A DNA stretch of 23,476 bases from a virus. The notes under the pieces were generated by a model. It was not told where the DNA came from. It saw only the letters and a list, made by a program, of their open reading frames with translations, and searched no databases. Below, one piece after another: positions 1,403 to 23,476 of the stretch. Position numbers and translations under genes: made by a program. Location of the stretch: UHGV virus genome UHGV-0118082; one strand, written 5' to 3'. Each line of letters begins with the position of its first letter. Position 1 is the stretch's first letter.

Positions 1403-1765
1403 ATGTTTAAGCTATTTGCAAAGTACACCTCGATAGGTGTGTTGAATACGCTAATACACTGGGTAGTTTTTGGTGTATGTATCTATGTTGCGCATACCAA
1501 TCAGACTATTGCTAACTTCGCAGGTTTCGTCGTTGCAGTGAGTTTCAGCTTCTTCGCGAATGCCAGATTCACCTTCAAAGCCGCCACAACAACGAAACGT
1601 TACATGCTCTATGTAGGATTCATGGGAATGTTGAGTGCGGCAGTAGGTTGGGCTGCTGACAAATGCTCACTTCCTCCTATTATCACGCTCATTACCTTTT
1701 CCGCCATCAGTCTGGTGTGCGGTTTCGTCTATTCAAAATTCATTGTATTTAGGAATGTGAAATGA
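1403..1765 (+). CDS. gtrA: GtrA-family flippase for bactoprenol-linked glucose
   Basis: 120-aa small hydrophobic protein; ATGA overlap with the downstream GT-2 glycosyltransferase; size and position match phage gtrA. Confidence 0.85.
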
Positions 1766-2688
1766 AAATATCTCTGGTCGTTCCTGTCTTCAATGAAGAA
1801 GATGCGATACCTATTTTCTATAAGACGGTACGTGAATTCGAAAAGTTGAAGCCATATGACGTCGAAATTGTATTCATAAATGACGGAAGTAAAGATTCTA
1901 CAGAATCTATTATCAATGCGCTTGGGGAGTCAGATCCACTAGTTAAGCCATTGTCCTTCACCCGTAATTTTGGCAAAGAGCCTGCGTTGTTTGCTGGGCT
2001 TGATCATGCAACTGGTGAAGCGATAATTCCAATAGACGTTGATTTACAGGACCCGATTGAAGTTATCCCTCACCTAATTGAGAAATGGCAGGCCGGGGCG
2101 GATATGGTATTAGCTAAGAGATCTGACCGCTCAACAGATGGTAGACTTAAACGAAAAACCGCCGAGTGGTTCTATAAGTTACATAATAAAATCAGCAACC
2201 CAAAGATTGAAGAGAACGTTGGAGATTTCCGCCTGATGTCGCGTGAGGTTGTTGAAAACATCAAGCTTTTACCTGAACGAAATCTTTTTATGAAGGGTAT
2301 CCTAAGCTGGGTTGGCGGTCGTACTGATGTGGTTGAGTATGCCCGCGCCGAACGTGTAGCCGGTAGTACTAAATTTAATGGCTGGAAGCTATGGAATCTC
2401 GCACTTGAGGGGATCACCAGCTTCTCCACCTTCCCGCTTCGCATCTGGACGTATATTGGCTTGTTTGTGGCGAGCGTAGCATTTATCTATGGCACATGGA
2501 TGATTATAGACACTATAGCTTTCGGTAATGCCGTTCGCGGGTACCCTTCTATTTTGGTATCTATACTATTTTTAGGTGGAATTCAATTGATTGGTATCGG
2601 AGTTCTAGGTGAATATATCGGAAGAATATATATAGAGACAAAAAAACGTCCTAAGTTTATTTTAAAGGGTTCAAAAAATGAGCATTGA
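1762..2688 (+). CDS. gtrB: GtrB bactoprenol glucosyltransferase (GT-2 family)
   Basis: 308 aa; GT-2 motifs visible in translation ([23 protein letters not shown]); hydrophobic C-terminal segment; overlaps start of next gene. Confidence 0.9.
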
Positions 2689-4306
2689 TTTTAATAAATA
2701 TAAATTAGCACTTTCGCTATTAATTATTTATTTTTTAACTTTTGTTATAAATTCTCTCGTCCCGCTAATATCTGATGATTTTAGCTATATGCGCATTGGT
2801 ATTGACTTATCAAGTCGTTATCATCACTATATGACATGGAGCGGAAGAATCGAGGCTGACATAATAAGCTCGGCAATACTTCAATTTAATTCAGTAATAG
2901 TAAAATCATTAATAAATGCAGCCCCATTGGTTGCTTTATGCTTTTTTGTGCATAAAATAATATCATTATATTCTGAATCAGACCCTTTAATCACGCCTCT
3001 GATTACATTTTCATGTTATTTTTTATTTAACCCCAATCTTGGGCAGACAACATTCTGGATTGTTGGGTCTGCAAACTATCTTTGGACTACTACCTTTTGC
3101 ATTGTTTTTACATATTCAATATGTCTACTGACAACATTAGATCGCATTACTAAAACAAAGGAAATATTTATATATTTATCGGCACTTTTAGCTGGGTGTT
3201 CTAGTGAGGCAAGTGCTGCATTAATGGTGTCAGCATCAGCGCTAGCAATTTTAAACAACATATATATCAGCAATAAAAATAAGCGAATTGCTATTATTGC
3301 CTTTGTATTTTGCTTGGCTGGGTTTATTGTTTTAATATTTGCCCCGGGGAATAAGGTAAGACTAGCTAGTGATGTTTTCAGCACGTGGAGAGGAATGGGT
3401 ATATTTGAAAAGGTAGAATACCATTTTTATGAGCGAGTCCCTAGCCTCATACGTTACATAAAATTTGAGTTTGCAATTGCTGCTGTATGTGTTATTTCAT
3501 ACATCGGTTATAATAAATTTAAATTTAGCACATCAGTATTCTGCTTATATGTAGCACCTATAATAGGTTTTTCTTTCATACTTGTTATTCTGGCATTTTC
3601 CCCATATACTCCAGAGCGTTCAGTTAATATACTTACTGTGATCCTTGCTATCCCTATATGTGCCTTAGTTAATAAACTAACAAAGCATGTCAAAATAGCA
3701 ATTACATTTTCCTTTGTTATTGTTATGCTTATAAACTGGACTCATGTTTATTCATCATATTCGAGAGTTTATATTCAGGACATTATGAGAAGATCCTACA
3801 TGCAGGATATGATTGAAAAAGGAGTTGATGACATAACAATTCCACAATATAACTTCTCAAACTTTTTCAAAGAACTTGATTTATGGGATTTATTTAACAA
3901 TGAATATGAGATAGCAAGATATTTTGGAGCCAAGAAAATTAACGTAATCCCGGTAAATATTGACTATTCCTATTTATTGACACAGCCTAACTACACTTGC
4001 AAAATAATTGATGAAAAATCAGTTGAAAAGATATACTCAATTAATTTTTATGAGGATTCTTTTAATGATGTACTGCTAATTGGAGAGACAACAAGTAGCA
4101 CTGGAACGATAGGTGAATTAACTAAAGTTAATTTTTCTGTTGTTACTGATGTTAGAAAATACCAATATGAATTGCCTTCAAATAACGTGTCTCTATTTGG
4201 ACGCAATCTCCTTGTTGTGAGAACCCCAGCGATTAATATTGACAAAGCAAAAGAGGTGTCATTCTTAATAAATGGGATGAATTGTGTATCGACAATTGAT
4301 AGATAA
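2678..4306 (+). CDS. GtrC-type serotype-specific O-antigen glucosyltransferase (polytopic membrane protein), assigned by operon position
   Basis: 542-aa ORF immediately after gtrB, highly hydrophobic N-terminal two-thirds, AT-rich; third position of a gtr operon. Confidence 0.7.
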
Positions 4307-4341: not shown

Positions 4342-6516
4342 TTATTTAATTCTAAAGTATGTTGATCCTGTGCTTAGGAATTCATATATCCCCTGTGATT
4401 CTATTGTTGTAATTAGCACTGGTCCATTATAAATACCTATGGTCTGACCATTAAAATTTACTGATGAAAGATCTAGCAAAACCCTGTTCCTAAGAAGCGT
4501 TCCATTTAATATAGTTAACTCTGGAAGCATCAGTGTTTTACCAGGAGATAAAGTACCTCCAAATTTTATTATATTCCTAGAATCATCAGGCCATGGTGAA
4601 GCCGAATTAATATCCGGTATTATTAGAATCTTACCTGAGTCACGATAGTCTGATGTTGAATAGAATGTTCCTTTACCTGAAGTATGTTCGTTATCATAAA
4701 TGCCAGCAGGGGCATTTGTGAGAACAGGTTGATTAAATCTAGTGCCTGCGAATCTTGCAATATAAGGTGCAGAAGTAGACATCGTTAGTGTTGGTTGTCC
4801 ATTGCCATTAAAACCAACTGCGTTATCTCCAATACTTGATCTTGAAAATTCATTTACATCAAAGAAACCAATATCAGTGAATCCACCTTCGCTCACTGAT
4901 TCATGGCTGTTTCCGGTAAATGAAAAGTTAGTAAAACGAGACGAGCATTTAAATGCCGGACCTGATTCTGTAGTGTGGTGCCTACCAAACTTAACACCGG
5001 TGAATGTAATGTTATCACCATTTACACAATCCATAACATTGCTGATGTACCCAGAACCTGAGTTCCACCCAATAGAACCGCCTACCCATGAAAAACCATC
5101 AAACTCCAGAATGTCAAATATCTTGCCGCCTGTAAAAGCATAGTGAGTGCAGTTTGAGAACATACATGACTTCATTCTGCGACCGCGGAAACCATACTTA
5201 GTTCCGAACAGATGGATATTAACAAACTGTCCACCTTCTATTCCTTGAATGCTTCCACCACTCAAATCAGTACCACCTACAAATTCTTTGGTCCCATCGA
5301 CTATGATGTCATTCCACAGCCCATAATGCCCCAGACCAGATCCTTCTCCGCCGCCATTCCCATCTTTGAAAGAGAAAGTTCGATATGTTTGCAGAACCCA
5401 TAAGTTGCTTATAGTAGGGTTCTCTATGACATCCAAACTGATGCATGTTGCTGTGCGCGGGTAGGTGTCATCTGGTAACTGATGCGCTCTTGATGTAAAT
5501 CTGACAACTTTTGTGATGTTAGATATCTCTGATGAAGGGGTTCCATTGCACCCAGTAACTCCGGTTAATGTACAACTCCCATCAGAGTTATTAACAAGTC
5601 CTGTAGCAAAGAACGCCCCGGAGTTAGTACTGAATTGACAGAAGTTACTTACCGGAACACCTGCGGTGTTGTTGTCAGTCAAAGGCCATGTAATTATATT
5701 TCCACCATTAGCCTGAAATGGATTTGATGCGAGTGTAATGGTATTGGATGTTTTGCTTATCACATCTGTGTTTTCTGACCCTACATATTGTGATATCACC
5801 AAGCGGTCTAATGAATAGCAAACATTACCAAACACAATCCCCCTTGAGTTAAGTCCAACCCTTATCTCTGGGGCATTCCCCAGGGAGTTTATTACACCTT
5901 CACCTCTTATTCCTATGGATACAGGTATTCCATCAATGGCAAATGGTATTGCAACCTCTGTGATTATGTTTATTTTTGAGTTCGCTGTAACAATCAGCTC
6001 TCCGTAGCCAATACGCACTAACGAGTAAATAGCAAGTTTAATTGCTGGTGAATCATTTGTGATGCCAGGTTCCTCAATGAAATTTTTAACTTCATTGATT
6101 CGGTAACCGTTTAGAAGCCCAACGCAAGCCCATTTAGTTGTTTCTACATTTGGAGTTTCACTTGATGAGATGGTGTGCGGTAACTCTCCTGTCCATACAT
6201 ACCATAATCCATCAGTGTAAAGATAAGCATCATTCTTTGATGATATAGTTACACCAGAAGAGAAATCTCCCTTTTTGACAAAAATTGATTGCTTGTAGTC
6301 ACTATAAATAGTTCCTCCATATGAGGAACCAATAAGCTTATCTCCACCAGAAGATGCTAATCTATGCTCAAATTGATCAGGGTCATACTTAAGTACATTC
6401 GGGAAATAGAACTGCTGCGAACCATACGCATCATATACAGCCATAGAATGGCCCTGCACAGTTACGAACTTGGCAATCTGTCCGTTATATACCGGATAGC
6501 CGACTTGGCTAATGTT
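4342..6516 (-). pseudogene. Tailspike gene remnant lacking the N-terminal head-binding domain (beta-helix receptor-binding/enzymatic part retained)
   Basis: Minus-strand frame open from the TAA at 6517-6519 to the stop at 4342. Translation ...[29 protein letters not shown]...VLKYDPDQ matches the end of the P22 gp9 head-binding domain ([28 protein letters not shown]...VLKYDPDQ) as I recall it. No ATG; first possible start is GTG at 6459; the upstream ~80-100 codons of a normal tailspike are absent. Confidence 0.75.
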
Positions 6517-6896
6517 TTATTAGCTGTTTTAGCTAATGTTAAGCTGTCCTGGCTAATCCACTGAGAAACCACCTTGTTCACTCCGATTTTCACGCCATCA
6601 GCAATGAGGAATTTACGCTCGATAAGCTGGCGCTTGGCAGCGCAAACATGAGTGTGATGAATACCTGTCATGGCTGCTATCTGCGTGTTTGTGAGTCGAT
6701 CCATCGGCTTATTGAATCCGTATGTCTTGCGCATGATAGCGAGCATCACCTTCAACTGCCGGACGGTTAAATCAGCCATCAGCAGACTGTCGGTAATCTC
6801 GTTAGCAACGCGCATGAAACCATCTTCGGTATCTGCCACGCGATGCTCCACGACCTCCAGTTGAGGCCTGTAATCAGCTAACTTAACGACGCCCAT
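6462..6896 (-). pseudogene. Replication initiator O-like gene, N-terminal DNA-binding domain only, truncated at its internal iterons
   Basis: 144-aa ORF; ADLTVRQLKVMLAIMRKTYGFNKPMDRLT resembles the lambda O N-terminal domain (ADLTKRQFKVLLAILRKTYGWNKPMDRIT). Last ~25 codons are read from the iteron region and junction, then stop; no C-terminal P-interaction domain. Confidence 0.75.
6496..6557 (-). repeat. Origin-type iterons inside the O-like gene (ori-lambda-like position)
   Basis: On the coding strand three ~19-bp units with dyad symmetry: ATTAGCCAGGACAGCT, ATTAGCTAAAACAGCTAAT, ATTAGCCAAGTCGGCT. Same position relative to the O N-terminal domain as the lambda ori iterons. Confidence 0.55.
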
Positions 6897-7510: not shown

Positions 7511-7711
7511 TTATGCAGTTGTTTTTTTGTTACTTGGGAAGGGCTTTATTTCTTCCGCATAAACGCTTCCATCAGCGTTTATAGTTAAAAAAATCTTTCG
7601 GCCTGCATGAATGGCCTTGTTAATCGCGCTTTGATATACGCCGAGATCTTTAGCCGTCTTGGTTTGCCCAAAGCGTATTGCATAATCTTTCAGGGTTATG
7701 CGTTGTTCCAT
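7511..7711 (-). CDS. cro: Cro repressor
   Basis: 66 aa [66 protein letters not shown], essentially the lambda Cro sequence as I recall it; AGGAGG Shine-Dalgarno upstream. Confidence 0.95.
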
Positions 7712-7808: not shown

Positions 7809-8525
<717 letters not shown>

Positions 8526-8556
8526 TTGTTTTATTTTTCACGTAATAGGATGATTT

Positions 8557-8898
8557 ATGACACAATTTCAACTTGCATTAATCGCTAGAGAAGTTGATGG
8601 AGAAGTCATCCATCTTCGCACCAAAGACGGATACATCAATGCCACCGCGATGTGCAAGTCTGCGGGGAAGCTACTTGCTGACTATACACGACTAAAAACA
8701 ACACAAGATTTTTTTGATGAATTATCACGCGATATGGGGATTCCCATATCGGAGTTAATTCAATCATTTAAAGGCGGAAGAGCAGAGAATCAAGGGACTT
8801 GGGTTCATCCAGACATCGCAATTAATTTAGCTCAGTGGCTATCTCCAAAATTTGCAGTGCAAGTATCGAGATGGGTGCGTGAGTGGATGTCAGGTTAA
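8557..8898 (+). CDS. KilA-N/APSES-fold DNA-binding domain protein occupying the rexA position
   Basis: 113 aa; RTKDGYINATAMCKSAGK ... FKGGRAENQGTWVHPDIAINLAQWLSPKF parallels the APSES/KilA-N signature (DxYVNAT..LKAA.. / QGGxGKYQGTWVP...A..LA); AGGA Shine-Dalgarno upstream of the ATG. Confidence 0.7.
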   Translation: MTQFQLALIAREVDGEVIHLRTKDGYINATAMCKSAGKLLADYTRLKTTQDFFDELSRDMGIPISELIQSFKGGRAENQGTWVHPDIAINLAQWLSPKFAVQVSRWVREWMSG

Positions 8899-8937
8899 AG
8901 AGCGCCTGCCGAACTCCCTATCCACCTTAAGCGGTAT

Positions 8938-9316
8938 ATGACAAACCGAGGCAGAGTTCCTCATACGCACTTTTCTATGCTTAATGAACTGACGTTTAAC
9001 TTGGTTGCGCCACTTGAACAGGCCGGATATACGCTGCCAGAAAAAATGGTCCCTGATATTTCAGAGGGTAGGGTTTTCTCGCAATGGCTCCGTGACAACC
9101 GGGGGGTTGAGCCGAAGACATTCCCAACATATAACCATGAGTACCCAGATGGCCGGACATTCCCGGTACGTCTATACCCAAACGAATATTGCAGATTTCA
9201 AACAATACTTCAACGAAGTGTGGCTGCCTCAGTACGCTCCTAAATATTTTGCTGAACGAGACCAAAGGGCATTGACGTTGATTGAGAAAATCATGCTACC
9301 TGACCTTGATTCCTAA
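8938..9316 (+). pseudogene. Hypothetical gene split by a +1 frame change (two protein-like ORF halves in different frames)
   Basis: Frame of 8938 reads protein-like to ...RTFPVRLYPNEY then degenerates. Frame of 9005 is junk-like at first but protein-like from ...IADFKQYFNEVWLPQYAPKYFAERDQRALTLIEKIMLPDLDS; switch point near 9175-9195. Confidence 0.45.
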
Positions 9317-9324
9317 ATGTTATT

Positions 9325-9350
9325 CCCGGCCACAGAGCCGGGTTTTCTTT
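9325..9350 (+). terminator. Intrinsic terminator ending the cI-operon transcript (lambda timm equivalent)
   Basis: CCCGG-ccacagag-CCGGG hairpin followed by TTTTCTTT; surrounding sequence matches the lambda region between rexB and OL as recalled. Confidence 0.7.
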
Positions 9351-9502
9351 GCCTCACGATCCCCCTCACCCAAGAACACATAACCAATTGTATCTATTTG
9401 AAAATAAATAGATACAACTCACTAAACATAGCAGTTCAGATCTCTCACCTACCAAACAATGCACCCCTGCAAAAAATAAATTCATATAAAAAACATACAG
9501 AT

Positions 9503-9565
9503 AACCATCTGCGGTGATGAATTATCTCTAGCGGTGTTGACATAAATACCACTGGCGGTGATACT
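9503..9565 (+). promoter_or_regulatory. Left operator OL3-OL2-OL1 and PL promoter
   Basis: OL3 9503-9519, OL2 9523-9539, OL1 9547-9563 (TACCACTGGCGGTGATA); PL -35 TTGACA at 9537-9542 and -10 GATACT at 9560-9565; matches the canonical PL sequence except a few bases. Confidence 0.85.
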
Positions 9566-9648: not shown

Positions 9649-9776
9649 AATAACCAAAGTGAACTTTGGGGTGAATGCAGAAGCTAACCTTCTCGGCGGA
9701 GGCGCTTTGCAATGATTACGCTACCGGAGTTAGTCGCCCGGCTGTATTCACCGCCAAAGTTCACCAGGAGGTCTAT

Positions 9777-10160
9777 ATGACACGCAGAACTCAGTTCAAA
9801 GGCAATTCACGTTCTCGTCGTCGTGAGCGTTTAAAGGCAAAGGCATTAGCTAACGGCGTACTGGCCCGCGAAGAAGCAATAAGTTCAGAAGTATTACACC
9901 GCCCTACTCTAAGCAGAGCGCAGATTCAGGCTAAAGGTACTCACGAAACGCCTGAGCGCATAGAAGACGCTAAGCCAATTAAGTTCATGGCACAGGACGT
10001 GATCTGGCAACAGAAAGAATACAGACGCAATCTGGAGAGAGCGGCCATTGTGTACGCGAATGAGTTTGGACATAAGCAACCAGAAACTGGTGTATGTCTT
10101 CCAAATGTAGCTCTTTACGCAGCAGGATACCGGAAATCAAAACAACTGACGGCGAGATGA
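9777..10160 (+). CDS. N-like transcription antiterminator (arginine-rich motif; P22 gp24/phage 21 N type)
   Basis: ATG at 9777 with AGGAGG Shine-Dalgarno; N-terminus MTRRTQFKGNSRSRRRERLKAKA is an arginine-rich RNA-binding motif; C-terminus LPNVALYAAGYRKSKQLTAR resembles P22 gp24. The track start at 9675 would include nutL and is rejected. Confidence 0.7.
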   Translation: MTRRTQFKGNSRSRRRERLKAKALANGVLAREEAISSEVLHRPTLSRAQIQAKGTHETPERIEDAKPIKFMAQDVIWQQKEYRRNLERAAIVYANEFGHKQPETGVCLPNVALYAAGYRKSKQLTAR

Positions 10161-15556: not shown

Positions 15557-15828
15557 AATAGCGGGTAAAATATTTTTCACATCTAAAAAACACCATTCCA
15601 ATCAATCCCCTGCCGCCTCAAGTAGATGTCTGCAGGGGACAATACCTTTTCATTTCATCACGTTTCAACACACTTCACCTCCCCCCTTAAAACCAGCAAA
15701 ATCAGGGCCTGTCGCCTTGAACATGGTTTCAGTTGATTTCATGACATTACATGATTCTGATGGTATCGTTGATGGTACTCACGGTTCGATAAACCGATAC
15801 CATCAACTGACAACAAAGATTACTCTCC
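15557..15828 (+). promoter_or_regulatory. Integrase leader with direct and inverted repeats; candidate Int arm-type sites/att region
   Basis: GGGTAAAATA direct repeat (15551-15560, 15563-15572); inverted repeat GATGGTATCG / CGATACCATC (15759-15768, 15795-15804) plus an extra GATGGTAC copy; hairpin CCCCTGC...GCAGGGG at ~15607-15638. The track ORF 15549-15842 is considered non-coding. Confidence 0.3.
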
Positions 15829-17100
15829 ATGGCACTAAATGAGCTATCACCCAAGAAAGTTGAAAACGCTAAACCCAAAGAAACAGACTACAAACTGACG
15901 GATGGGGGAAGCCTGTATCTTTTAGTTAAAAAGAACGGGACCAAGGCATGGCGAATGAACTACAGATTTAACGGCAAACAAGCTACGCTGGCTTTGGGCG
16001 TTTTCCCAGACGTTTCGCTGGCACTTGCCCGTAAGCGTAGAGATGAAGCAAGGCAACTTTTAGCCGACGGTGTTGATCCCAGAGTATCTAAAAAAGCAGC
16101 GCCAACAGAACCCGCCTCTGCTACATTCCAGACAATCGCTTTAGAGTGGCATAAAGGCTCTATAGGCCATCCCTCATGGAAAGAGATTACCCGCACTAAA
16201 ATTTTAAGAGAAATGGAAAATCATATTTTCCCATATATCGGAAATAAACCCATCGACTCATTAAAAACAAGTGACCTGTTGCCATTATTGGTGAGGATGA
16301 GTGATCAGGGAATTGGAGCAACAACAGGAAGAGTGAAAACTACTCTTGCAAGCGTTTTCCGGTACGCTATTCAGCGTGGAATTGTTGAATACAATCCTAC
16401 CCATGATCTAAGAGGAGCAATTTCCAGCCCCAAAATAAAGCATCGCCCTGCACTTCCGTTAGAACGATTACCCGAATTAATATCAAAAATTGATAGCTAT
16501 ACAGGGAGGCCGTTAACTAAGCTGGCAGTATTATTTTCTCTTCATACTTTTGTTCGCTCCAGTGAACTGAGACACGCAAGATGGGAGGAAATTAATTTTG
16601 AAAATGCAATGTGGACTATTCCTGCTCAAAGAAAAAGAATTGATGGGGTAAAATATTCAGAGCGTGGGGCAAAAATGGGCAGTATTCATTATGTTCCATT
16701 ATCTAATGAAGCTATTGATGTTCTCGAAGCTATTAAAAAAATAAGTGGTGAGTATGAACTTATTTTCCCCGGAGATAGTAACCCTTACAAACCAATGAGT
16801 GAGAACACAGTTAATAAGTCATTAAGAATTATGGGGTACGACACGCAGGTGGACATTTGCCTTCATGGATTTAGGGCAATGGCGTGCTCAGCCCTGACAG
16901 AATCAGGCTTATGGTCGAGGGATGCAGTAGAACGGCAAATGAGCCATCAAGAACGAAATGAAGTGCGAGCCGCTTATGTACACTTAGCTCAGCATATGCA
17001 TGAACGTCGTCGGATGATGCAATGGTGGTCTAATTATATTGAAGCTAACACTGATAGATATATTGCCCCCTATAAAATGAAAAAACTACGCGTTGTTTGA
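15829..17100 (+). CDS. int: Tyrosine integrase, P4-type (DUF4102-like N-terminal arm-binding domain)
   Basis: 423 aa; N-terminal LYLLVKKNGTKAWRMNYRFNGK and C-terminal PMSENTVNKSLRIMGY...HGFRAMACS...ERQMSHQERNEVRAAYVH closely parallel P4 Int as recalled. Confidence 0.95.
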   Translation: MALNELSPKKVENAKPKETDYKLTDGGSLYLLVKKNGTKAWRMNYRFNGKQATLALGVFPDVSLALARKRRDEARQLLADGVDPRVSKKAAPTEPASATFQTIALEWHKGSIGHPSWKEITRTKILREMENHIFPYIGNKPIDSLKTSDLLPLLVRMSDQGIGATTGRVKTTLASVFRYAIQRGIVEYNPTHDLRGAISSPKIKHRPALPLERLPELISKIDSYTGRPLTKLAVLFSLHTFVRSSELRHARWEEINFENAMWTIPAQRKRIDGVKYSERGAKMGSIHYVPLSNEAIDVLEAIKKISGEYELIFPGDSNPYKPMSENTVNKSLRIMGYDTQVDICLHGFRAMACSALTESGLWSRDAVERQMSHQERNEVRAAYVHLAQHMHERRRMMQWWSNYIEANTDRYIAPYKMKKLRVV

Positions 17101-17174
17101 AAATAAGAAAATGGCTAATAGTAGTAAAGTCTGCTATTCGCCCCATTTTACCATATGTGCATACAGGTGACGTG

Positions 17175-18149
17175 ATGAGCGATAATACACGATTAAATGT
17201 TTGGGAAAGGAATAGTATTCCTGTAATGGAATTTTGCTCCCTAAAACGAGCTGCTGAACTACTTAATTGCCAAATTGATGACCTTATCCATTTTGCTCAA
17301 ATTGGAATTATCGAATTTTGCTTAGAATTAAATGGTTTCGAAGCTGCGCTAATGATGATGCGTAAAGGTGGAGATTTTAAAGATTGGGAAAACATGTACC
17401 CACCCAGAGTATTAAACTATAGTAATAAATCTGCATTAAGCCATTTCATACCAAAAGCAAAATTCGATATTGATTATACAGAAGATAAGCCATTTTCACC
17501 TCCAAAACAAATATACCATTTAGAAAACAAACCAAATATAAAAAGCCCATTAATCTTACTTTCTGGATTGTGGTCTATATGTGTCATCAGCCCAACATCT
17601 TCATTATACAAAGAACTAAAGGTATATGGTAAAGCAAGGCTATTAGCACATGATATTTCTTTTAAAGAAGCTAATATGCCATTCACTAATGCTGCATTTG
17701 GCAGTGATGAGTGGGTAATATTAGCAATGTCCCCTTTCGAAGGCTTATCATCAATAGAGGGATTAGTATCTCCATCTAATAAAAATATTATTGGAAATAT
17801 AACACTGGATGATATCTATTTAACAAGATACCAAATAGAAAAATTAGATAACGGTGTTGGCAAAGAGCTACCCAGCTATGTGAATGGTGGTGTATCCAGC
17901 ATCGAAAGCATCCGAAGAGTGCATGGTAATGTTGAAGCATCAGCAACAAAAAGAGAGGCAGTGTACAAAGCAGCTATTTATTGGTTACTAAATGACCCAG
18001 CATCTTGCAATGGAAAACGAGGAAAACTGACTATTGACGCGTGGGCAGATAAAATCGTGGCAGAAAGAAACAATCCAAAAACAAAGGTTGAACTTGGAAA
18101 AGATAAGATAAAAGAATGTCTTAGCTCATCTAAAGCAGGAAGATTTTAA
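17175..18149 (+). CDS. Hypothetical cargo protein, AT-rich, with possible N-terminal HTH; function unknown
   Basis: ATG at 17175 with AGGTGA Shine-Dalgarno (track start 17097 is TTG overlapping int stop); 324 aa; N-terminus FCSLKRAAELLNCQIDDLIHFAQIGII looks helix-turn-helix-like; no catalytic motif recognised; clearly more AT-rich than int and primase flanks. Confidence 0.6.
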   Translation: MSDNTRLNVWERNSIPVMEFCSLKRAAELLNCQIDDLIHFAQIGIIEFCLELNGFEAALMMMRKGGDFKDWENMYPPRVLNYSNKSALSHFIPKAKFDIDYTEDKPFSPPKQIYHLENKPNIKSPLILLSGLWSICVISPTSSLYKELKVYGKARLLAHDISFKEANMPFTNAAFGSDEWVILAMSPFEGLSSIEGLVSPSNKNIIGNITLDDIYLTRYQIEKLDNGVGKELPSYVNGGVSSIESIRRVHGNVEASATKREAVYKAAIYWLLNDPASCNGKRGKLTIDAWADKIVAERNNPKTKVELGKDKIKECLSSSKAGRF

Positions 18150-18220
18150 GTGGTAATATTTTATACCATCATAAAAACAAAATAGTGGCACTGATAATTT
18201 AGCCCTAACCTTGCCATCAT

Positions 18221-18248
18221 CTGCCGTGTTCATTACATAACACGGCAG
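18221..18248 (+). promoter_or_regulatory. Perfect 10-bp inverted repeat immediately upstream of alpA, overlapping its ribosome-binding region
   Basis: CTGCCGTGTT-cattacat-AACACGGCAG; right arm ends 8 nt before the alpA ATG; loop carries the CATTACA motif repeated at 18702-18747. Confidence 0.45.
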
Positions 18249-18256
18249 GTAATTTC

Positions 18257-18466
18257 ATGACATTAAAAACTTACCCTATCACCGGGCATGCCCGCCCACG
18301 GGCTACTGCTGACTTTTTGCAAGTAAGCACAGTTACTCTCTGGCGCTGGGAAAAAAACAATCCTGAATTTCCAAAATCCACACGTATTTCAAAACGGGTA
18401 ACTGTTTACGATGCACAAGAAATTAGACAGTGGGTAAAAGCTCAATCCTCAGATGCTGATAAATAA
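18257..18466 (+). CDS. alpA: AlpA-family transcriptional regulator (P4 Vis-like)
   Basis: 69 aa; FLQVSTVTLWRWEKNNPEFPKSTRISKRVTVYDAQEIRQWV fits the AlpA HTH pattern. Confidence 0.8.
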   Translation: MTLKTYPITGHARPRATADFLQVSTVTLWRWEKNNPEFPKSTRISKRVTVYDAQEIRQWVKAQSSDADK

Positions 18467-18517
18467 TATGACGACCTTAGAAAAATGGGAAAGAAGAAAA
18501 TCTTCCCCATGTATTTA

Positions 18518-18697
18518 TCAGTTCTTTGGTTCGGAACCACGACTTTGTAGCTCTTTGCGGATAATGCGTTTGATCCAAGCAGCCAGTGATTCATCACCAT
18601 CCTGCTGCTGTGCTTCTTCCATTAACTCACGCAATTCAGGGTCAAGTCTGAACTGGAATGGTGGATTACCACGTCTTTCGTTCTTGTGTGTTGACAC
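18518..18697 (-). CDS. Small ribbon-helix-helix-like protein (59 aa), divergent from the satellite early operon
   Basis: GTG start at 18697 inside a palindrome; translation ...PPFQFRLDPELRELMEEAQQQDGDESLAAWIKRIIRKELQ has the beta-strand then helix pattern of RHH/Arc-type proteins; no ATG start, weak evidence. Confidence 0.4.
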   Translation of the reverse strand: MSTHKNERRGNPPFQFRLDPELRELMEEAQQQDGDESLAAWIKRIIRKELQSRGSEPKN

Positions 18698-18747
18698 GTC
18701 AATTACACCTATTGTAATGTGCTTATGTGTAATGACACATTACACAC
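18691..18747. promoter_or_regulatory. Divergent promoter/operator region with three dyad-symmetric elements
   Basis: TTGAC-ac-GTCAA (18691-18702); ATTACA-cctat-TGTAAT (18702-18718); TGTGTAATG-aca-CATTACACA (18727-18747). Confidence 0.5.
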
Positions 18748-18828
18748 AAGGAATCAAAATAGCAACGCCCCGGAGTGTTTGCGGCACTGCCGAGGCGTCT
18801 GACCAAAGCGTTAGATGAGGTAACGAAA

Positions 18829-19005
18829 ATGGCTAAACAGAAGTGTACCTGGTTATTTGCGGCGATCAACCGCAGTCAACGCAATGCCCGTCCTGTGATG
18901 TTAAGGATCACCGCAGATAACGAGCGCTCAGCGCGGCGCAGACTTGCCCCGGACTATGTGCTGAGCTTTGCCGGTCGCATTCCCTGTGGAGGTGAACATG
19001 CGTAA
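18829..19005 (+). CDS. Small protein, possibly Icd-like (host cell division inhibitor family) - tentative
   Basis: ATG at 18829 with GAGGT Shine-Dalgarno (track start 18775 is GTG); 58 aa; TWLFAAINRSQ...LRITADNERSARRRLAPDYVLSFAGRIP resembles the Icd-like pattern as I recall it. Confidence 0.45.
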   Translation: MAKQKCTWLFAAINRSQRNARPVMLRITADNERSARRRLAPDYVLSFAGRIPCGGEHA

Positions 19006-19357
19006 TTATCCGCAACCCGGCGAACGCTGGCAGCATGAGCGTGGCTGGACTGTCACGATTATCAGATTAACTGAAGCCTCGCCCTCCGTGGCGCTGGTTA
19101 ACCCTGAATTCAGCTGTGAAGTGCTGATTCGTCATGACAGCGACAATAAGCTTTCTTCCTGCCCTCTGGCATGGTTTGAGCAGCGGTATACGCGCCTGTT
19201 TAATGCCCCGCTCTTTAAACCTTCGCTAGCTCCCGCGGGGGGTAGCGGCTCTGGCTCGCTGACGCTGCATCCGTCGGTGGTATTTACCCGCTGGCGGGAG
19301 CGCAGCATACGGCGTTCTGCTGAACCTGACGACAGTCACTATTCAAAGTTTCTCTGA
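18998..19357 (+). CDS. Hypothetical satellite early protein
   Basis: ATG at 18998 with GGAGG Shine-Dalgarno 5 nt upstream (track start 18968 is TTG); 119 aa; overlaps upstream stop. Confidence 0.5.
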   Translation: MRNYPQPGERWQHERGWTVTIIRLTEASPSVALVNPEFSCEVLIRHDSDNKLSSCPLAWFEQRYTRLFNAPLFKPSLAPAGGSGSGSLTLHPSVVFTRWRERSIRRSAEPDDSHYSKFL

Positions 19358-19388
19358 CAAAACACCGCTGAAAACGGAGTAATCCACG

Positions 19389-19673
19389 ATGAATATTTCA
19401 AACGGGCACAACGGTGCTCAGGGCCACGCTTTGCCTGAAAAACACAATAGCGGTGCTTTTGCGTATGGGTTGTCAGAGGACGGTTTCGGAAAGCTGGACC
19501 GCGCCAGAAAGGCCTGCGACATGTTGCAGCTTCTCTTTTCTGAATACCCCTCGCAGGGCGGAACGCTGGATGCAGGATGTGCGCCAGGCATCGCCGCGCT
19601 GATGGAGTACCTGCGGGCAGATTTGACGGATATTGCGCACAGTTGCGAACTGATTGAAGGAGGCACCCAATGA
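19389..19673 (+). CDS. Hypothetical satellite early protein
   Basis: 94 aa; ATGA overlap with next gene; GC-rich codon usage consistent with neighbours. Confidence 0.5.
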   Translation: MNISNGHNGAQGHALPEKHNSGAFAYGLSEDGFGKLDRARKACDMLQLLFSEYPSQGGTLDAGCAPGIAALMEYLRADLTDIAHSCELIEGGTQ

Positions 19674-20053
19674 ACCAGCCGCAGGTTTCTATTTTTCCGG
19701 CAGAAATGACCACTGCGCTTTACCGGCGGGCTATTGCATCGGCCTGGCGCCAGAAAGCGCTGACCGAAACCGGCTGCGATCACTATGGTCCGCACAGCCT
19801 GACGGTTGAACGTATTGAAATGGCCATTGCCCTGCATATCGAGTGCGCACTGATTAACGAATATGGCGAAGCACAGGGAGCAGCGGCTGCACTGGCGCTG
19901 CTGACTGACATGCTGGAGCCATCATTGCTGACCGCGCCACCGGTACTGACTGTGCGCGGCTGTGAAGTGATGGCGGAGCTGTACCGCACACTTCCGGCGG
20001 CATTTGATGACTTCTGCAGCTCGGGTGTATCGCTGTATCAGGGGGAAATATGA
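19670..20053 (+). CDS. Hypothetical satellite early protein
   Basis: 127 aa; GAAGGAGG Shine-Dalgarno; ATGA overlap with the primase gene. Confidence 0.55.
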   Translation: MNQPQVSIFPAEMTTALYRRAIASAWRQKALTETGCDHYGPHSLTVERIEMAIALHIECALINEYGEAQGAAAALALLTDMLEPSLLTAPPVLTVRGCEVMAELYRTLPAAFDDFCSSGVSLYQGEI

Positions 20054-22722
20054 CAACACAGACGGTTACGCAGATTTCAGCCGCAGCGCGGGGAAAATGG
20101 CCCGTCATTCTGCAGATGCTGCGTATTGATGTACCTGAAAACGGCAGGCACGGTCCCTGCCCGAAATGTGGGGGCAAGGATCGCTTCCGCCTCGATGACC
20201 TCGACGGGCGCGGGACGTGGATTTGCAGCCAGTGCGGCAATGGTGATGGTCTGGATCTGGTTAAGCTCATAACCGGTTACGGCATCAGAAAGGCAGCGCA
20301 GGAGGTGGCGCAGGTGCTTAATGTGCCGGATGTGCAGGAACTGCCCGTTAAGCCCGCCAGGCAAAAAGCCCCTAAACGCGATATGAGCCTTACCGTGGCG
20401 GCCCTGATGAAAGAGAGTCACACGGGAGAAAGCCCCTATCTGACCGGAAAAGGGTTCGCCGGATACCCGGCCTCCCTGACCGGGAGCGTGCAGCATATCA
20501 GTGGTAAGGATTTCCCTGCCGGTTCCCTGCTGTTACCGCTCACGACAAACGCCGGAGCCGTGACCGGTGCACAGCTTATCGCCCCGACGGGTGAAAAAAG
20601 CATACTGCCCGGCAGCACGATGAAAGGCGCGTTTGTGGCGCTCAGCCCGTTACCGTCTGAACCGCCGGTACAGGTGGTGATTACCGAAGGTTACGCCACG
20701 GCGCTGACGGTAAGCCAGCTCACCGCCGGATGCGTAGTGGCGGCCATATCGGCGGGCAACCTGCCCAACGTCGCACAGGCGCTGCGGGCACGCTGGCCTG
20801 AGGTAAAAATTATCATCGCCGGTGATAACGATTTTCAGGACGGGGGCGAGAATCCCGGCAGATCCTTTGCTGAACGGGCGGCAAAATCAGTCGGTGGCTG
20901 GGTGACGCTGCCACCGGGAGAAATTAAAGCTGACTGGAATGACTTCCACCGTGAGCACGGTATTACACGTGCCCGTGAAGCCTTTCGTAACGGTCTTGTA
21001 CTGTGCGGAGAAGGCCGCACGCAGTTGCCGCACGGGTTCCGTCTTACCCAGGAATATCTCTGGTATGAAAAACAGGTACAGCGCAACGGTGAGACGGAGA
21101 TCCAGAACGTCAAAATATGCAACCCGTTGCGCGTGACGGCAATCACCTGCGATGCTGATGGCGGTAATTTCGGGCGACTGCTGGAGTGGGAAGATACATG
21201 GGGAGAGCGCCGCCGCTGGGCGATGCCGATGGAAATGCTCAGTGGTAGCGGTGAGGAACTACGCCGGGTACTGCTGGTTAACGGGCTGTCCTATATCAGC
21301 ACCACCGGTGAGGCCCGCGCCCGCCTGATGGAATATATCTCGCTGTGTAAACCGGAACGCCGCGTGACCTGCGTCAGCCGCACTGGCTGGCATGGTCAGG
21401 TTTACGTCCTGCAGGATGAGGTCAGCGGTGAAGGTGCAGAGGGTGTCATTCTCCAGACCACTTCCGTGCAGGGGCGCGATTTCCGTGTGTCAGGTACAAC
21501 GGAGGAATGGCGGGAGCACGTTTCCCGTTACTGCACCGGTAACTCCCGCGTGGCGTTTGCCGTCAGTCTGGCCTTTGCTGCACCCCTGTTACGGCTGGTT
21601 GGGATGGACGGCGGCGGCTACCACCTCAAGGGGGAATCGACTGACGGTAAGACCACCACCATGAAAGCGGCAACCTCCGTTTGTGGCGGGCCTGATTACT
21701 GGCAGACGTGGCGGGCAACCGGCAACGCGCTGGAGGGATGCGCCAGCCGCCGCAACGATGCCGCCATGATGCTTGATGAGATCCGGGAGGTGGACGGACG
21801 CGAGGCGGGTAATATCGCCTACATGCTGGCAAACGGTCAGGGCAAGGGCCGTGCCGGTACGGACGGTGAGCTGCGCACCCGTAAGCAGTGGCGGCTGCTG
21901 TTCTTTTCAACCGGCGAGCTGTCACTGACCGAACATGCGGCAAAAGCCGGTGAGCGTACCTTTGCCGGGATGGAAGTCAGGATGATCCAGATCCCCAGCG
22001 ATTCCGGGAAATTTGGCGTATTTGAGGAGCTGCACGGCTTCGACAGCGGCAAGGCTCTGGCGGAACATCTGGAGTGGGCCACGTCCAGCTACTACGGTTC
22101 GCCGTTCAGGGAGTGGCTGAAAGCCCTGACCGCTGACCTTAACGGGCTGACGGCACAGGCAAAGTCACTGATGAAGGAATATACAGCCGCCCTGACCCCG
22201 AAAGATGCGGGTAATCAGGTAGGCCGGGCTGTGAACCGCTTTGCACTGGTGGCGATGGCGGGCGAGCTGGCAACCCGGCTGGGTATTACCGGCTGGCCTG
22301 AGGGTGAAGCGCTGCGGGCAACCCGCGTCTGCCTGAACGCATGGCTGAAAGATCGCGGGCACACCGCCAATCAGGAAGATATTGCCGCACTGGAGCAGGT
22401 ACGCAGCTTCTTTACCGCGAATCAGTACAGCCGCTTTGCTGACTGGCACGACGAGCGTAACCGCCCCGGCAATATGGTGGGCTGGCGCAGGGTGGAGAAA
22501 GGCAGTACCGCGCAGGGCACGGAGGCCGTCACCACGTTCTACGTCATGCCGTCCGGCTGGAAAGAAATCTGCCGGGGATTTGACCCGCGCAAGGTGGCGC
22601 GTCTGTGCGCGGATCGTGGATACCTGCTGCCCTCCACCGATGGCAAGCTGCAGACAACCATTCGCCCGCCAGAGATGAATCCCCGCAGACTCTATGTCTT
22701 CAACAGCGAGGTGCCGGGTTAA
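20050..22722 (+). CDS. Primase-helicase (P4 alpha-like: zinc ribbon + TOPRIM primase + P-loop NTPase)
   Basis: 890 aa; CPKCGG...CSQCG zinc ribbon; TOPRIM-like acidic motifs (VITEGYATA, IIAGDND); Walker A GESTDGKTT and Walker B-like MMLDEIRE. Confidence 0.9.
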   Translation: MTTQTVTQISAAARGKWPVILQMLRIDVPENGRHGPCPKCGGKDRFRLDDLDGRGTWICSQCGNGDGLDLVKLITGYGIRKAAQEVAQVLNVPDVQELPVKPARQKAPKRDMSLTVAALMKESHTGESPYLTGKGFAGYPASLTGSVQHISGKDFPAGSLLLPLTTNAGAVTGAQLIAPTGEKSILPGSTMKGAFVALSPLPSEPPVQVVITEGYATALTVSQLTAGCVVAAISAGNLPNVAQALRARWPEVKIIIAGDNDFQDGGENPGRSFAERAAKSVGGWVTLPPGEIKADWNDFHREHGITRAREAFRNGLVLCGEGRTQLPHGFRLTQEYLWYEKQVQRNGETEIQNVKICNPLRVTAITCDADGGNFGRLLEWEDTWGERRRWAMPMEMLSGSGEELRRVLLVNGLSYISTTGEARARLMEYISLCKPERRVTCVSRTGWHGQVYVLQDEVSGEGAEGVILQTTSVQGRDFRVSGTTEEWREHVSRYCTGNSRVAFAVSLAFAAPLLRLVGMDGGGYHLKGESTDGKTTTMKAATSVCGGPDYWQTWRATGNALEGCASRRNDAAMMLDEIREVDGREAGNIAYMLANGQGKGRAGTDGELRTRKQWRLLFFSTGELSLTEHAAKAGERTFAGMEVRMIQIPSDSGKFGVFEELHGFDSGKALAEHLEWATSSYYGSPFREWLKALTADLNGLTAQAKSLMKEYTAALTPKDAGNQVGRAVNRFALVAMAGELATRLGITGWPEGEALRATRVCLNAWLKDRGHTANQEDIAALEQVRSFFTANQYSRFADWHDERNRPGNMVGWRRVEKGSTAQGTEAVTTFYVMPSGWKEICRGFDPRKVARLCADRGYLLPSTDGKLQTTIRPPEMNPRRLYVFNSEVPG

Positions 22723-22750
22723 GGCTTTGCGTGAGTCTTATTTATTAAGG

Positions 22751-22946
22751 GTAACAGGTGAAACAGGTGGAACACCCGTATTTTACAAGGGCTAAACCTG
22801 TTTCACCTTCTGAAATAGTGAGGTGGAACAGGTGGAACGCCAGCCGATCCGCTGTTCCACCTTGTTACCTGCGATGTTTCACCTGTGATGTGCATATAAA
22901 TGTTTTACAAAACAATGCTGTAACACCTGTTCCACCTGTTTCACCG
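22751..22946. repeat. Iteron cluster / candidate replication origin for the primase-helicase
   Basis: At least eight copies of GGTG(A/G)AACAGG or its complement, in both orientations, flanking an AT-rich stretch at 22889-22920; reminiscent of the TGTTCACC repeats of P4 ori/crr. Confidence 0.65.
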
Positions 22947-23122
22947 CATCCGGGACATAAAGCAGGCTGAAACAGAGGCATTTTTATCTGGCTGGCTGTC
23001 ATGGCCGCGTCTGAATAACCGCAAACGCCCGTTGTGCCAGCCACCACACACTGAGCGCCGATAGTGCGCTTGTGTCAGTCACGACACAATTGACGTAACG
23101 AACCAACCCGGCAGGAGAAGTC

Positions 23123-23476
23123 ATGAACAACACCGCAGAGAATAACAACCTTTCCACTTTTCCGGCTGTAACGCAGCAGGCAATGGAAACCCTGAACACG
23201 GCCAGAAGCGCATGGCTTGAAGCACGTCGTCGGCAGAAAGCGGCAGCGGATAATATTGCGACAATCCGCCAGCGCCGGGCTGAAATGGAAGCCACGACGA
23301 ACGCGCTGAATGAGGAGTGGCGCACGCTGTTTCGTGAAAGTCAGGGCGTAGTCTCAAAGGAAATGAAAAAACTGCGCACGGAAATTGCGCTGGGACGAGA
23401 AACGCTTGAGGATTTTGATGAACTGCTGGCAGCTCAGGAAAGCGAAAATGCCTTATTACCGCAGGAAGCCGGGAAA
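23123..23476 (+). CDS. Hypothetical helical protein, 5' part only (runs off window end)
   Basis: ATG at 23123 with AGGAGA Shine-Dalgarno; open through window end (118 codons); charged helical sequence MNNTAENNNLSTFPAVTQQAMETLNTARSAWLEARRRQKAAADN... Confidence 0.5.
   Translation, partial: MNNTAENNNLSTFPAVTQQAMETLNTARSAWLEARRRQKAAADNIATIRQRRAEMEATTNALNEEWRTLFRESQGVVSKEMKKLRTEIALGRETLEDFDELLAAQESENALLPQEAGK

What the first reader, a model, noticed from the sequence alone, without database searches (positions are those of the whole stretch)
9150..9200. +1 frame change splitting the second rex-slot gene
Two overlapping ORFs (8938-9243 and 9005-9316) are each protein-like only on one side of about 9180: frame A up to ...RLYPNEY, frame B from IADFKQYF... 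A single-base indel would join them into one ~125-aa product. This is either recent inactivation, a sequencing error, or a recoding site.
Basis: seen in the sequence. Interest (0 to 1): 0.4.

Follow-up and report, generated by a model that had tools for sequence, protein, structure and literature searches.

The report
Broken BstA phage-defence gene remnant
The frame change is a real 2-base deletion inside one ancestral 253-codon BstA-type phage-defence gene next to the prophage repressor; the gene also carries a premature stop upstream, so this is an ordinary, widely inherited pseudogene and not a second gene or a recoding site.

Summary
ORFs 8938-9243 and 9005-9316 overlap, and the protein-like reading switches frame at about 9188.

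The gene model is wrong. Intact homologues at 99.3% nucleotide identity (E. coli D5, phage PhiR5_2) have one 762-bp gene for a 253-aa protein: an N-terminal KilA-N domain plus a C-terminal BstA_C domain. It lies directly downstream of cI, as bstA does in Salmonella phage BTP1.

Against that gene, the window allele (8557-9316) differs by four events:
- a synonymous G>A at 8565;
- G>T at 8896 (GAA>TAA, E114*);
- a 2-bp deletion (TC/CT) after 9188;
- C>T at 9206 (H218Y, a nearly invariant residue).

The "first" and "second" rex-slot genes are therefore pieces of one gene.

The same 760 bp occur in 12 independent assemblies. The 113-aa product is indexed in 1970 blocks of the collection. This excludes a sequencing error.

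Intermediate haplotypes indicate that the deletion came first and the nonsense codon last.

Programmed frameshifting is not supported. The needed shift is +1/-2, no suitable slippery site is present, homologues are in frame, and the upstream stop blocks ribosomes.

The prophage is itself defective: a deletion joins replication gene O to the tailspike gene.

Low interest. One curiosity is that the same codon-114 stop occurs on two other allele backgrounds.

The parts
7812..8525 (+). cI-type repressor gene (237 aa, intact). It is the upstream gene of the immunity operon that carries the bstA remnant.
   Evidence: ORF. The identical region is annotated as a LexA family protein in EC2641 and 1008S19. 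HTH_3 and Peptidase_S24 domains are recorded in the related loci.
8557..8898 (+). Truncated 5' part of the bstA-family gene: 113 codons covering the whole KilA-N domain, ending in the premature TAA. This is probably the only piece still translated, because it has an AGGA Shine-Dalgarno upstream.
   Evidence: Pfam KilA-N E 1.7e-27, residues 13-112. The exact protein equals WP_227164514.1. It was seen on at least 1000 contigs and in 1970 blocks. Shine-Dalgarno context.
8896..8898 (+). Nonsense codon TAA. It is GAA (Glu114) in intact alleles (G>T at 8896). It lies in the inter-domain linker.
   Evidence: Alignments A1, A2 and A3. Difference list. The AF2 model has a low-confidence linker at residues 112-121.
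8899..9316 (+). Untranslated remnant of the C-terminal BstA_C domain (ancestral codons 115-253), interrupted by the 2-bp deletion.
   Evidence: The PADLOC BstA HMM hits the intact homologue at residues 120-237 (E 2.5e-20) and hits both window fragments. BLASTP against BTP1 BstA gives E 5e-15.
8938..9243 (+). Frame-A ORF of the finding: ancestral residues 127-210 followed by 17 out-of-frame residues (CRFQTILQRSVAASVRS). It is not a gene and has no Shine-Dalgarno.
9188..9189 (+). Site of the 2-bp deletion. TC (or equivalently CT) is missing between these bases. Codon Leu211 is lost and the frame shifts by +1.
   Evidence: Alignments. One search places the gap after 9188. The same deletion is present in all 12 loci whose 760 bp are identical to the window (L003, L004, L007-L016). 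It is also present in L006 (strain 81, not fully identical) and in the stop-less intermediates L019-L024.
9190..9316 (+). Frame-B segment encoding ancestral residues 212-253 (ADFKQ[H>Y]FNEVW...LDS) plus the original stop codon. It corresponds to three C-terminal helices of the BstA_C domain.
   Evidence: Invariant or nearly invariant residues F215, H218, F219, W223, Y231 and F232 lie here. Helices 209-235, 237-246 and 249-252 in the model.
9206..9206 (+). C>T substitution. In the ancestral frame it changes nearly invariant His218 to Tyr, a sign of relaxed constraint after the frameshift.
   Evidence: Conservation. Haplotype series.
8565..8565 (+). Synonymous G>A (CAG>CAA, Gln3). It is a marker that orders the haplotype series.
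9325..9350 (+). Intrinsic terminator ending the cI-bstA transcript (the immunity-region terminator).
   Evidence: Terminator scan: stem CCCGGC/GCCGGG plus a T tract. The homologous stretch is annotated 'immunity region | terminator' in HK542 and HK244.

Best explanation
Bases 8557-9316 are one decayed gene of the BstA family, a prophage-encoded abortive-infection defence gene. The intact protein has an N-terminal KilA-N DNA-binding domain and a C-terminal BstA_C domain. It removes Leu211 and throws the last 42 conserved residues (three helices of the C-terminal domain) out of frame. A second lesion, GAA>TAA at codon 114 (8896-8898), ends translation in the inter-domain linker.

Shown here:
- the two lesions;
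- their absence from homologues that are 99.3% identical;
- their presence in many independent assemblies;
- a nested haplotype series: intact, then deletion, then +C9206T, then +G8565A, then +G8896T. This implies that the frameshift was the first inactivating event and the nonsense codon the last.

Inferred:
- the intact gene is transcribed with cI in lysogens and blocks replication of superinfecting phage DNA, as described for BstA of BTP1 (PMC8585504);
- the window allele has lost that activity;
- at most it makes a 113-aa KilA-N-only protein;
- ORFs 8938-9243 and 9005-9316 are not genes.
For: 1. One intact 762-bp, 253-aa CDS is present in phage PhiR5_2 and E. coli D5. The two proteins are identical to each other. 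Across the gene the window differs from them only at 8565, 8896, the 2-bp gap and 9206.
2. A more distant homologue (666R9, 77.5% nucleotide identity) is also one 257-aa ORF across both sites.
3. Family assignment: Pfam KilA-N E 1.7e-27. The PADLOC BstA HMM gives E 2.5e-20 on the intact protein, and the two window fragments hit consecutive profile segments. All 120 listed hits of 2748 relatives carry precomputed PF26567 BstA_C, and all but one truncated partial also carry PF04383 KilA-N. BLASTP against BTP1 BstA gives 29% identity and E 5e-15 over the C-domain.
4. The gene order cro / cI / bstA / N is the same as in BTP1.
5. The allele is real. The 760 bp are identical in 12 independent loci with different flanking genes (L003, L004, L007-L016). 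The 113-aa product is in 1970 blocks and the 55-aa frame-B piece is on 423 contigs.
6. Order of events: deletion-only products of 228 aa exist (P0122 on 16 contigs, P0123 on 1). Their DNA forms a one-step-at-a-time series.
7. Loss of function: the out-of-frame tail covers invariant residues F215, F219, W223, Y231 and F232, and H218Y hits a residue conserved in at least 90% of sequences. The model shows three helices lost.
8. Decaying context: replication gene O is truncated and abuts an N-terminally truncated tailspike gene, so most of the prophage is deleted.
Against: No expression or phenotype data are available, so loss of defence is inferred rather than shown. The 253-aa subfamily with a canonical KilA-N domain is not one of the three BstA proteins tested experimentally; those are 297-307 aa. 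The doubly broken allele is at least as abundant in public data as the intact one (at least 1000 contigs against 924), which pure neutral decay does not predict, although clonal sampling could explain it. The stop falls exactly at the domain boundary and recurs on other allele backgrounds. That leaves room for a retained function of the KilA-N fragment.
Confidence: 0.9

Rival explanations
1. The truncation is not pure decay. A stand-alone 113-aa KilA-N protein, the cis-acting DNA around the gene start (the equivalent of the aba self-immunity element of BTP1), or both are retained for a function. One possibility is a decoy or dominant-negative that protects this prophage against intact cognate BstA in other lysogens. 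Under this reading the C-terminal effector domain has been selectively discarded.
For: The stop at codon 114 falls in the predicted linker, just after the KilA-N domain (Pfam residues 13-112; model linker 112-121). The same GAA>TAA occurs on two other allele backgrounds with an otherwise intact C-terminal frame: E. coli H6 and Klebsiella. There are 109 possible single-base nonsense changes in the gene. The stop-bearing haplotype is far more abundant (1970 blocks) than its frameshift-only precursor (16 contigs). The first 113 codons carry only one synonymous change. In BTP1 the aba element spans -29 to +34 of the bstA start and acts as DNA.
Against: Many other truncations of the same gene exist (69, 81, 93, 144, 175, 176, 226 and 239 aa), which points to general recurrent decay. 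The Klebsiella split allele has T81A at an invariant KilA-N residue. Between H6, D5 and the window the flanks of the stop are identical for about 275 bp, and for about 130 bp in the Klebsiella allele, so a single origin spread by gene conversion cannot be excluded. No direct repeats of 6 nt or more like the BTP1 aba termini are found around the start. Abundance could reflect clonal sampling. Too few substitutions exist for a selection test.
Confidence: 0.1
2. Sequencing or assembly error: the true sequence has an intact gene and the 2-bp gap is an artefact.
For: One public assembly of this allele (strain 81) does show homopolymer errors nearby (G6>G5) and a frameshifted cI.
Against: The site is not a homopolymer. 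Exactly the same 760 bp, with both lesions, are found in 12 independent isolate and metagenome assemblies from different projects and countries, in different prophage contexts. The products are indexed on hundreds to thousands of contigs. The deletion is linked to specific substitutions in a nested series.
Confidence: 0.01
3. Programmed ribosomal frameshift (recoding) that joins frame A to frame B and makes a functional C-terminal domain.
For: A heptamer CCCAAAC (9177-9183) sits in the X XXY YYZ register of frame A just upstream of the switch.
Against: That heptamer would give a -1 shift into the third frame (...PKRILQISNN...), not the +1/-2 shift that is needed. The heptamer is also present in the in-frame homologues, where it simply encodes YPN. 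The codons at the switch (TAT TGC) are not +1-slippery. Intact relatives are collinear, so the frame change is confined to one near-clonal allele. The upstream TAA at 8896 stops ribosomes, and the internal ATGs lack a Shine-Dalgarno. The region downstream of the shift has H218Y at a conserved residue.
Confidence: 0.01
4. Two genuinely separate small genes occupy the rex slot, the second of which is split.
For: PGAP annotates only the 113-aa KilA-N ORF as a gene in genomes that carry this allele. In H6 and Klebsiella, two 113-aa ORFs are annotated side by side.
Against: The two parts are in the same reading frame and are separated by a single TAA, which is GAA in intact alleles. Listed relatives down to 56% identity, out of 2748 found, are single proteins carrying both domains. 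The H6 and Klebsiella 'pairs' are the same gene with the same nonsense codon.
Confidence: 0.01

Closest known systems
BstA abortive-infection protein of Salmonella prophage BTP1 (Owen et al. 2021, PMC8585504), covered by Pfam PF26567 BstA_C and PADLOC PDLC02356
   Same: The position is the same: immediately downstream of the prophage cI repressor, before N. The architecture is the same two domains: an N-terminal KilA-N-type DNA-binding domain and a C-terminal BstA_C domain. The C-domain is homologous (29% identity, E 5e-15; PADLOC E 2.5e-20).
   Different: The ancestral protein is shorter (253 aa against 307 aa). Its N-domain is a canonical Pfam KilA-N that does not align with the BTP1 N-domain by BLASTP. 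This subfamily was not among the three proteins tested experimentally. No BTP1-like aba terminal direct repeat is visible. The window copy is broken by a nonsense codon and a 2-bp deletion.
Intact allele WP_000191544.1 (E. coli D5 and others; identical protein in Escherichia phage PhiR5_2)
   Same: It is 99.3% identical in DNA, lies in the same cI-linked position and is followed by the same terminator.
   Different: It has GAA at codon 114, the TC dinucleotide present, CAC (His218) and CAG (Gln3), giving one 253-aa ORF.
rexA/rexB of phage lambda
   Same: It occupies the same slot (downstream of cI, in the immunity transcript) and has the same general role: prophage-encoded exclusion or abortive infection (established knowledge; discussed in PMC8585504).
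   Different: There is no sequence or domain relationship. This was one gene, not two.
Split alleles in E. coli H5/H6 (WP_249530431.1 + WP_249530430.1) and Klebsiella pneumoniae (P0138 + P0153)
   Same: They belong to the same gene family and have the same GAA>TAA at codon 114, giving a 113-aa KilA-N product.
   Different: Their C-terminal frame is intact (no 2-bp deletion). The allele backgrounds and the upstream repressors differ. The codon before the stop is GGC rather than GGT.

Membership tests
BstA family (prophage abortive-infection protein) | N-terminal KilA-N or KilA-N-like DNA-binding domain | tested here: met
   Pfam PF04383 E 1.7e-27, residues 13-112 of the window's 113-aa ORF. In the model of an 86%-identical homologue, the N-domain matches the APSES DNA-binding domains of Mbp1, PCG2 and Bqt4.
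BstA family (prophage abortive-infection protein) | C-terminal BstA_C domain homologous to that of BTP1 BstA | tested here: met
   This is met for the ancestral gene. The PADLOC BstA HMM gives E 2.5e-20 on the intact allele, and the window fragments hit profile positions 160-226 and 236-272. PF26567 is precomputed on the family. BLASTP against BTP1 BstA gives E 5e-15. The local Pfam copy did not report BstA_C.
BstA family (prophage abortive-infection protein) | Located directly downstream of, and co-oriented with, the prophage repressor gene | tested here: met
   cI is at 7812-8525 (+) and the gene starts at 8557 (+). The terminator is at 9325-9350, and pL and N follow. The order is the same in BTP1.
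BstA family (prophage abortive-infection protein) | Cognate aba self-immunity DNA element overlapping the gene start (in BTP1: 63 bp with terminal CCCGCC direct repeats) | tested here: inconclusive
   No direct repeat of 6 nt or more was found in 8480-8660. However, aba elements are homologue-specific and have been mapped only in BTP1, so absence of a look-alike proves nothing.
BstA family (prophage abortive-infection protein) | Continuous ORF encoding both domains (a functional member) | tested here: not met
   There is a TAA at 8896-8898 and a 2-bp deletion after 9188. The window copy is a pseudogene of the family, not a functional member.
BstA family (prophage abortive-infection protein) | Confers abortive-infection defence by blocking phage DNA replication | not testable with these tools
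   This needs plaque and replication assays. It has been shown only for the BTP1, Kp52.145 and NCTC10963 proteins.
Programmed ribosomal frameshift site | Slippery sequence in the right register for the required direction of shift | tested here: not met
   The required shift is +1/-2. The only heptamer, CCCAAAC (9177-9183), is a -1 type and leads to the wrong frame. TAT TGC at the switch is not +1-slippery.
Programmed ribosomal frameshift site | Frame change conserved among diverged homologues | tested here: not met
   Homologues from 99% down to 56% identity are collinear single ORFs. The frame change is confined to one near-identical allele series.
Programmed ribosomal frameshift site | Ribosomes reach the site in the upstream frame | tested here: not met
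   An in-frame TAA lies 290 nt upstream, and the internal ATGs at 8938 and 8977 have no Shine-Dalgarno.

The most novel reading that the evidence does not exclude
The codon-114 stop is not random decay. Under this reading, selection repeatedly converts BstA-type genes into a stand-alone KilA-N protein. Together with the cis DNA at the gene start, this fragment would act as an anti-BstA decoy or immunity factor. It would let a prophage, or what is left of one, escape cognate BstA in other lysogens while shedding the costly abortive-infection effector domain. The 2-bp deletion seen here would be the first step of that shedding.
Probability: 0.08. Interest if true: 0.55.

Novelty: already known. 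Interest (0 to 1): 0.15.

Why it matters
The practical value is in annotation. The three ORFs between cI and N (8557-8898, 8938-9243, 9005-9316) should be merged into one pseudogene of the BstA family. Public annotations of this allele name only the 113-aa piece and leave the rest unflagged.

Biologically, it adds one documented case, with an ordered mutational path, to what looks like frequent inactivation of a prophage abortive-infection gene in Enterobacteriaceae. It does not reveal a new mechanism.

The only lead of wider interest is the recurrence of the same stop codon at the domain boundary on three allele backgrounds. That would matter if the KilA-N fragment proved to have an anti-defence role.

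Tried and rejected
- Sequencing error: rejected. The same 760 bp are found in 12 independent assemblies, and thousands of contigs carry the products.
- Programmed frameshift: rejected. The only candidate, CCCAAAC (9177-9183), is in the -1 register, leads to the wrong frame, and is present in in-frame homologues.
- Two separate genes: rejected. The pieces are in the same frame and a single TAA separates them.
- Local Pfam scan for BstA_C: it found nothing, even at E 10. The assignment therefore rests on the PADLOC HMM, precomputed PF26567 hits and BLASTP against BTP1 BstA.
- Search for aba-like terminal direct repeats around the start codon: none of 6 nt or more. Uninformative, because aba elements are homologue-specific.
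- Profile search against PDB sequences: no hit. Foldseek against PDB matched only the N-terminal APSES/KilA-N fold, and the C-domain has no solved relative.
- Looking for this subfamily among the experimentally tested BstA proteins: it is not there. The tested proteins are 297-307 aa and Table S1 entries are mostly 270-307 aa.
- Stop-only versions of the window allele (a 126-aa product with Tyr218; a repaired 253-aa product with Tyr218): neither is in the collection. This fits the order deletion first, stop last.
- Whole-window search: no complete E. coli genome holds more than 41% of the window in one place, so the source genome was not identified.

Full report
**1. Observation**

The window around the finding is a lambdoid immunity region in reversed lambda orientation.
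- cro lies at 7511-7711 (-).
- A 237-aa cI lies at 7812-8525 (+).
- Three ORFs follow on the + strand: 8557-8898 (113 aa), 8938-9243 (101 aa) and 9005-9316 (103 aa).
- An intrinsic terminator lies at 9325-9350, a pL-like promoter at 9537-9565, and N ends at 10160.

Frame A reads ...RLYPNEY and then nonsense. Frame B reads nonsense and then IADFKQYFNEVW....

ORF 8557-8898 and ORF 8938-9243 are in the same frame and are separated only by one TAA at 8896-8898.

**2. What the intact gene looks like**

Megablast against phage records found Escherichia phage PhiR5_2 at 98.4% identity over window 8530-9400, which includes flanking sequence. That record has one annotated 762-bp CDS across the whole stretch. 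It also found three phages (666R9 and relatives) at 77.5% identity with one 'KilA-N domain-containing protein'.

Among complete E. coli genomes, the intact-allele group (for example strain D5, WP_000191544.1) carries one intact 253-aa gene at 99.3% identity.

Within the gene, the window differs from D5 and PhiR5_2 at only four events:
- G>A at 8565 (synonymous);
- G>T at 8896 (GAA>TAA, E114*);
- loss of TC after 9188 (GAATATCTTGCAG becomes GAATATTGCAG);
- C>T at 9206 (His218>Tyr in the ancestral frame).

The '+1 frame change' is therefore a 2-bp deletion. The 'second rex-slot gene' is the C-terminal half of the first.

**3. Family**

- The first 113 codons are a complete Pfam KilA-N domain (E 1.7e-27).
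- The PADLOC BstA profile hits the intact protein at residues 120-237 (E 2.5e-20).
- The window's frame-A ORF matches profile positions 160-226, and the frame-B ORF matches positions 236-272. These are two consecutive pieces of one domain.
- All 120 listed hits, out of 2748 relatives in the protein collection, carry precomputed PF26567 (BstA_C). All but one truncated partial also carry PF04383 (KilA-N).
- tblastn and BLASTP link the C-domain to BstA of Salmonella phage BTP1 (29% identity, E 5e-15). In BTP1 the gene also sits between cI and N.

According to Owen et al. 2021 (PMC8585504), BstA has these properties:
- it is expressed from the prophage;
- it localises to replicating phage DNA;
- it blocks phage DNA replication and aborts infection;
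- it is neutralised for its own phage by a 63-bp DNA element (aba) that spans the gene start.

The 253-aa subfamily seen here has a canonical KilA-N domain. It is shorter than the three proteins tested in that paper (297-307 aa).

An AlphaFold model of an 86%-identical homologue (pLDDT 91) gives this layout:
- domain 1 at residues 1-111;
- a low-confidence linker at 112-121;
- domain 2 at 122-252.

Domain 1 matches the APSES DNA-binding domains of Mbp1, PCG2 and Bqt4. Domain 2 has no solved relative.

The stop at codon 114 falls in the linker. The deletion at codon 211 removes helices 209-235, 237-246 and 249-252. These contain the invariant residues F215, F219, W223, Y231 and F232.

**4. Real allele or artefact?**

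- The exact 113-aa product is indexed in 1970 blocks of the assembly collection.
- Ten loci were fetched through it. Together with complete genomes EC2641 (China) and 1008S19 (Japan), that makes 12 loci carrying the identical 760 bp with both lesions. Strain 81 (China) carries both lesions too, but its assembly is not identical across the gene.
- The flanking genes differ between loci: different replication modules, N intact or truncated, RecT, Nmad5, Ral or DUF551 downstream.
- The 55-aa frame-B gene call is on 423 contigs. The intact protein is on 924 contigs.

A sequencing error is excluded.

**5. Order of events**

Exact look-ups found 228-aa 'deletion-only' products that have Glu114 with the frameshifted tail: P0122 (16 contigs read) and P0123 (1 contig).

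At the DNA level the haplotypes form a chain in which each step is one event:
- intact: G8565, G8896, TC present, C9206;
- P0123: deletion, with C9206;
- L024: deletion plus T9206;
- L019-L022: the same plus A8565;
- the window: the same plus T8896.

No stop-bearing version of this background without the deletion was found. H218Y followed, at a residue conserved in at least 90% of sequences, and the nonsense codon came last. This is the pattern expected of a gene drifting after inactivation.

A caveat applies. Recombination among alleles could scramble this order, and P0123 was checked only at the protein level.

**6. Recoding**

The required shift is +1 or -2. The heptamer CCCAAAC (9177-9183) is in the X XXY YYZ register of frame A, but it would give a -1 shift into the third frame. 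It is equally present in in-frame homologues, where it encodes YPN.

The switch codons TAT TGC are not +1-slippery. Ribosomes starting at 8557 stop at 8896, and the internal ATGs at 8938 and 8977 lack a Shine-Dalgarno.

Homologues down to 56% identity are collinear. Programmed frameshifting is rejected.

**7. Context**

The prophage is itself a remnant. The O replication gene (6462-6896, -) keeps only its N-terminal domain. It abuts a tailspike gene (4342-6459, -) whose head-binding domain starts at profile position 86. The whole late region is therefore deleted.

A gtrABC-like O-antigen modification module lies at 1403-4306. A P4-like satellite occupies 15630-23476. No complete E. coli genome in the collection holds more than 41% of the window in one place.

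**8. An unexplained residue**

The same GAA>TAA at codon 114 is found with an intact C-terminal frame in two other settings:
- E. coli H5/H6, which have a different repressor, differ at roughly 20 other nucleotide positions within the gene, and read GGC TAA;
- a Klebsiella allele that otherwise matches the Klebsiella-type intact protein P0124, apart from T81A at an invariant residue.

The gene has 109 possible single-base nonsense changes. Three hits at one site would be unlikely if they were independent.

Two points argue against reading much into this. Between H6, D5 and the window, the DNA flanking the stop is identical for about 275 bp (about 130 bp in the Klebsiella allele), so one origin spread by gene conversion cannot be excluded. 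Many other truncations of the same gene exist (69, 81, 93, 144, 175, 176, 226 and 239 aa), which argues for general recurrent loss.

I rate a retained function for the KilA-N fragment or for an aba-like DNA element as possible but unsupported. No BTP1-like terminal direct repeats occur around the start.

**9. Verdict**

- The feature is an ordinary, widely inherited pseudogene of a known prophage defence family inside a defective prophage.
- Novelty: already known.
- Interest: low.

Noticed in passing
L018 (E. coli H6) 1529-2290; L025-L028 (Klebsiella) 3001-3762: The same GAA>TAA stop at codon 114 (here GGC TAA) occurs on two other allele backgrounds of this gene, with the C-terminal frame intact. 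It is annotated as two adjacent 113-aa proteins (a KilA-N protein and a 'hypothetical' protein). It could be independent recurrence at the domain boundary or spread by gene conversion. The Klebsiella copy also has T81A at an invariant residue.
   Followed up: partly
protein clusters (P0137, P0140, P0142, P0136, P0141, P0143, P0132, P0149): Many further truncated forms of this BstA-like gene exist in E. coli, Klebsiella, Raoultella and Enterobacter (69, 81, 93, 144, 175, 176, 226 and 239 aa). The 69-, 81-, 93-, 175- and 176-aa forms end just before codons that are one substitution from a stop. Loss of this defence gene seems to be frequent.
   Followed up: partly
window 4342-6896 (- strand): This looks like a deletion junction. 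A replication protein O gene that keeps only its N-terminal domain (6462-6896) abuts a tailspike gene whose head-binding domain begins at profile position 86 of 113 (4342-6459). The prophage has lost everything from mid-O to the tailspike and is defective.
   Followed up: partly
window 1403-4306 (+): This is a GtrA / GtrB (GT2) / DUF6056 (GtrC-like) module. It is an O-antigen modification (serotype-conversion) cassette at the tailspike end of the prophage remnant.
   Followed up: no
window 15630-23476: This is a P4-like satellite element: tyrosine integrase at 15829-17100, a TOPRIM/DUF927 primase at 20050-22722, and genes of the psu/sid type. It is 99.9-100% identical to many E. coli chromosomes and lies next to the lambdoid remnant.
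   Followed up: no
window 9177-9183: CCCAAAC is a perfect X XXY YYZ heptamer in frame A, just upstream of the frame switch. It is a coincidence: it encodes YPN in intact homologues, and a -1 slip there enters the wrong frame.
   Followed up: yes
L003, L004, L006 (RefSeq annotation of the same allele): PGAP names only the 113-aa KilA-N ORF and leaves the remaining 420 bp unannotated rather than flagging a pseudogene. In strain 81, extra homopolymer errors (G6>G5) create a spurious 113-aa 'hypothetical protein', and cI is marked as frameshifted.
   Followed up: yes
window 9675-10160 (+): The longest ORF for N is 161 aa, but homologous loci call N at 127 aa (equivalent to 9777-10160). Several loci that carry the same broken bstA allele have N truncated to 55 aa or replaced, which shows heavy mosaicism just downstream of the terminator.
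   Followed up: no
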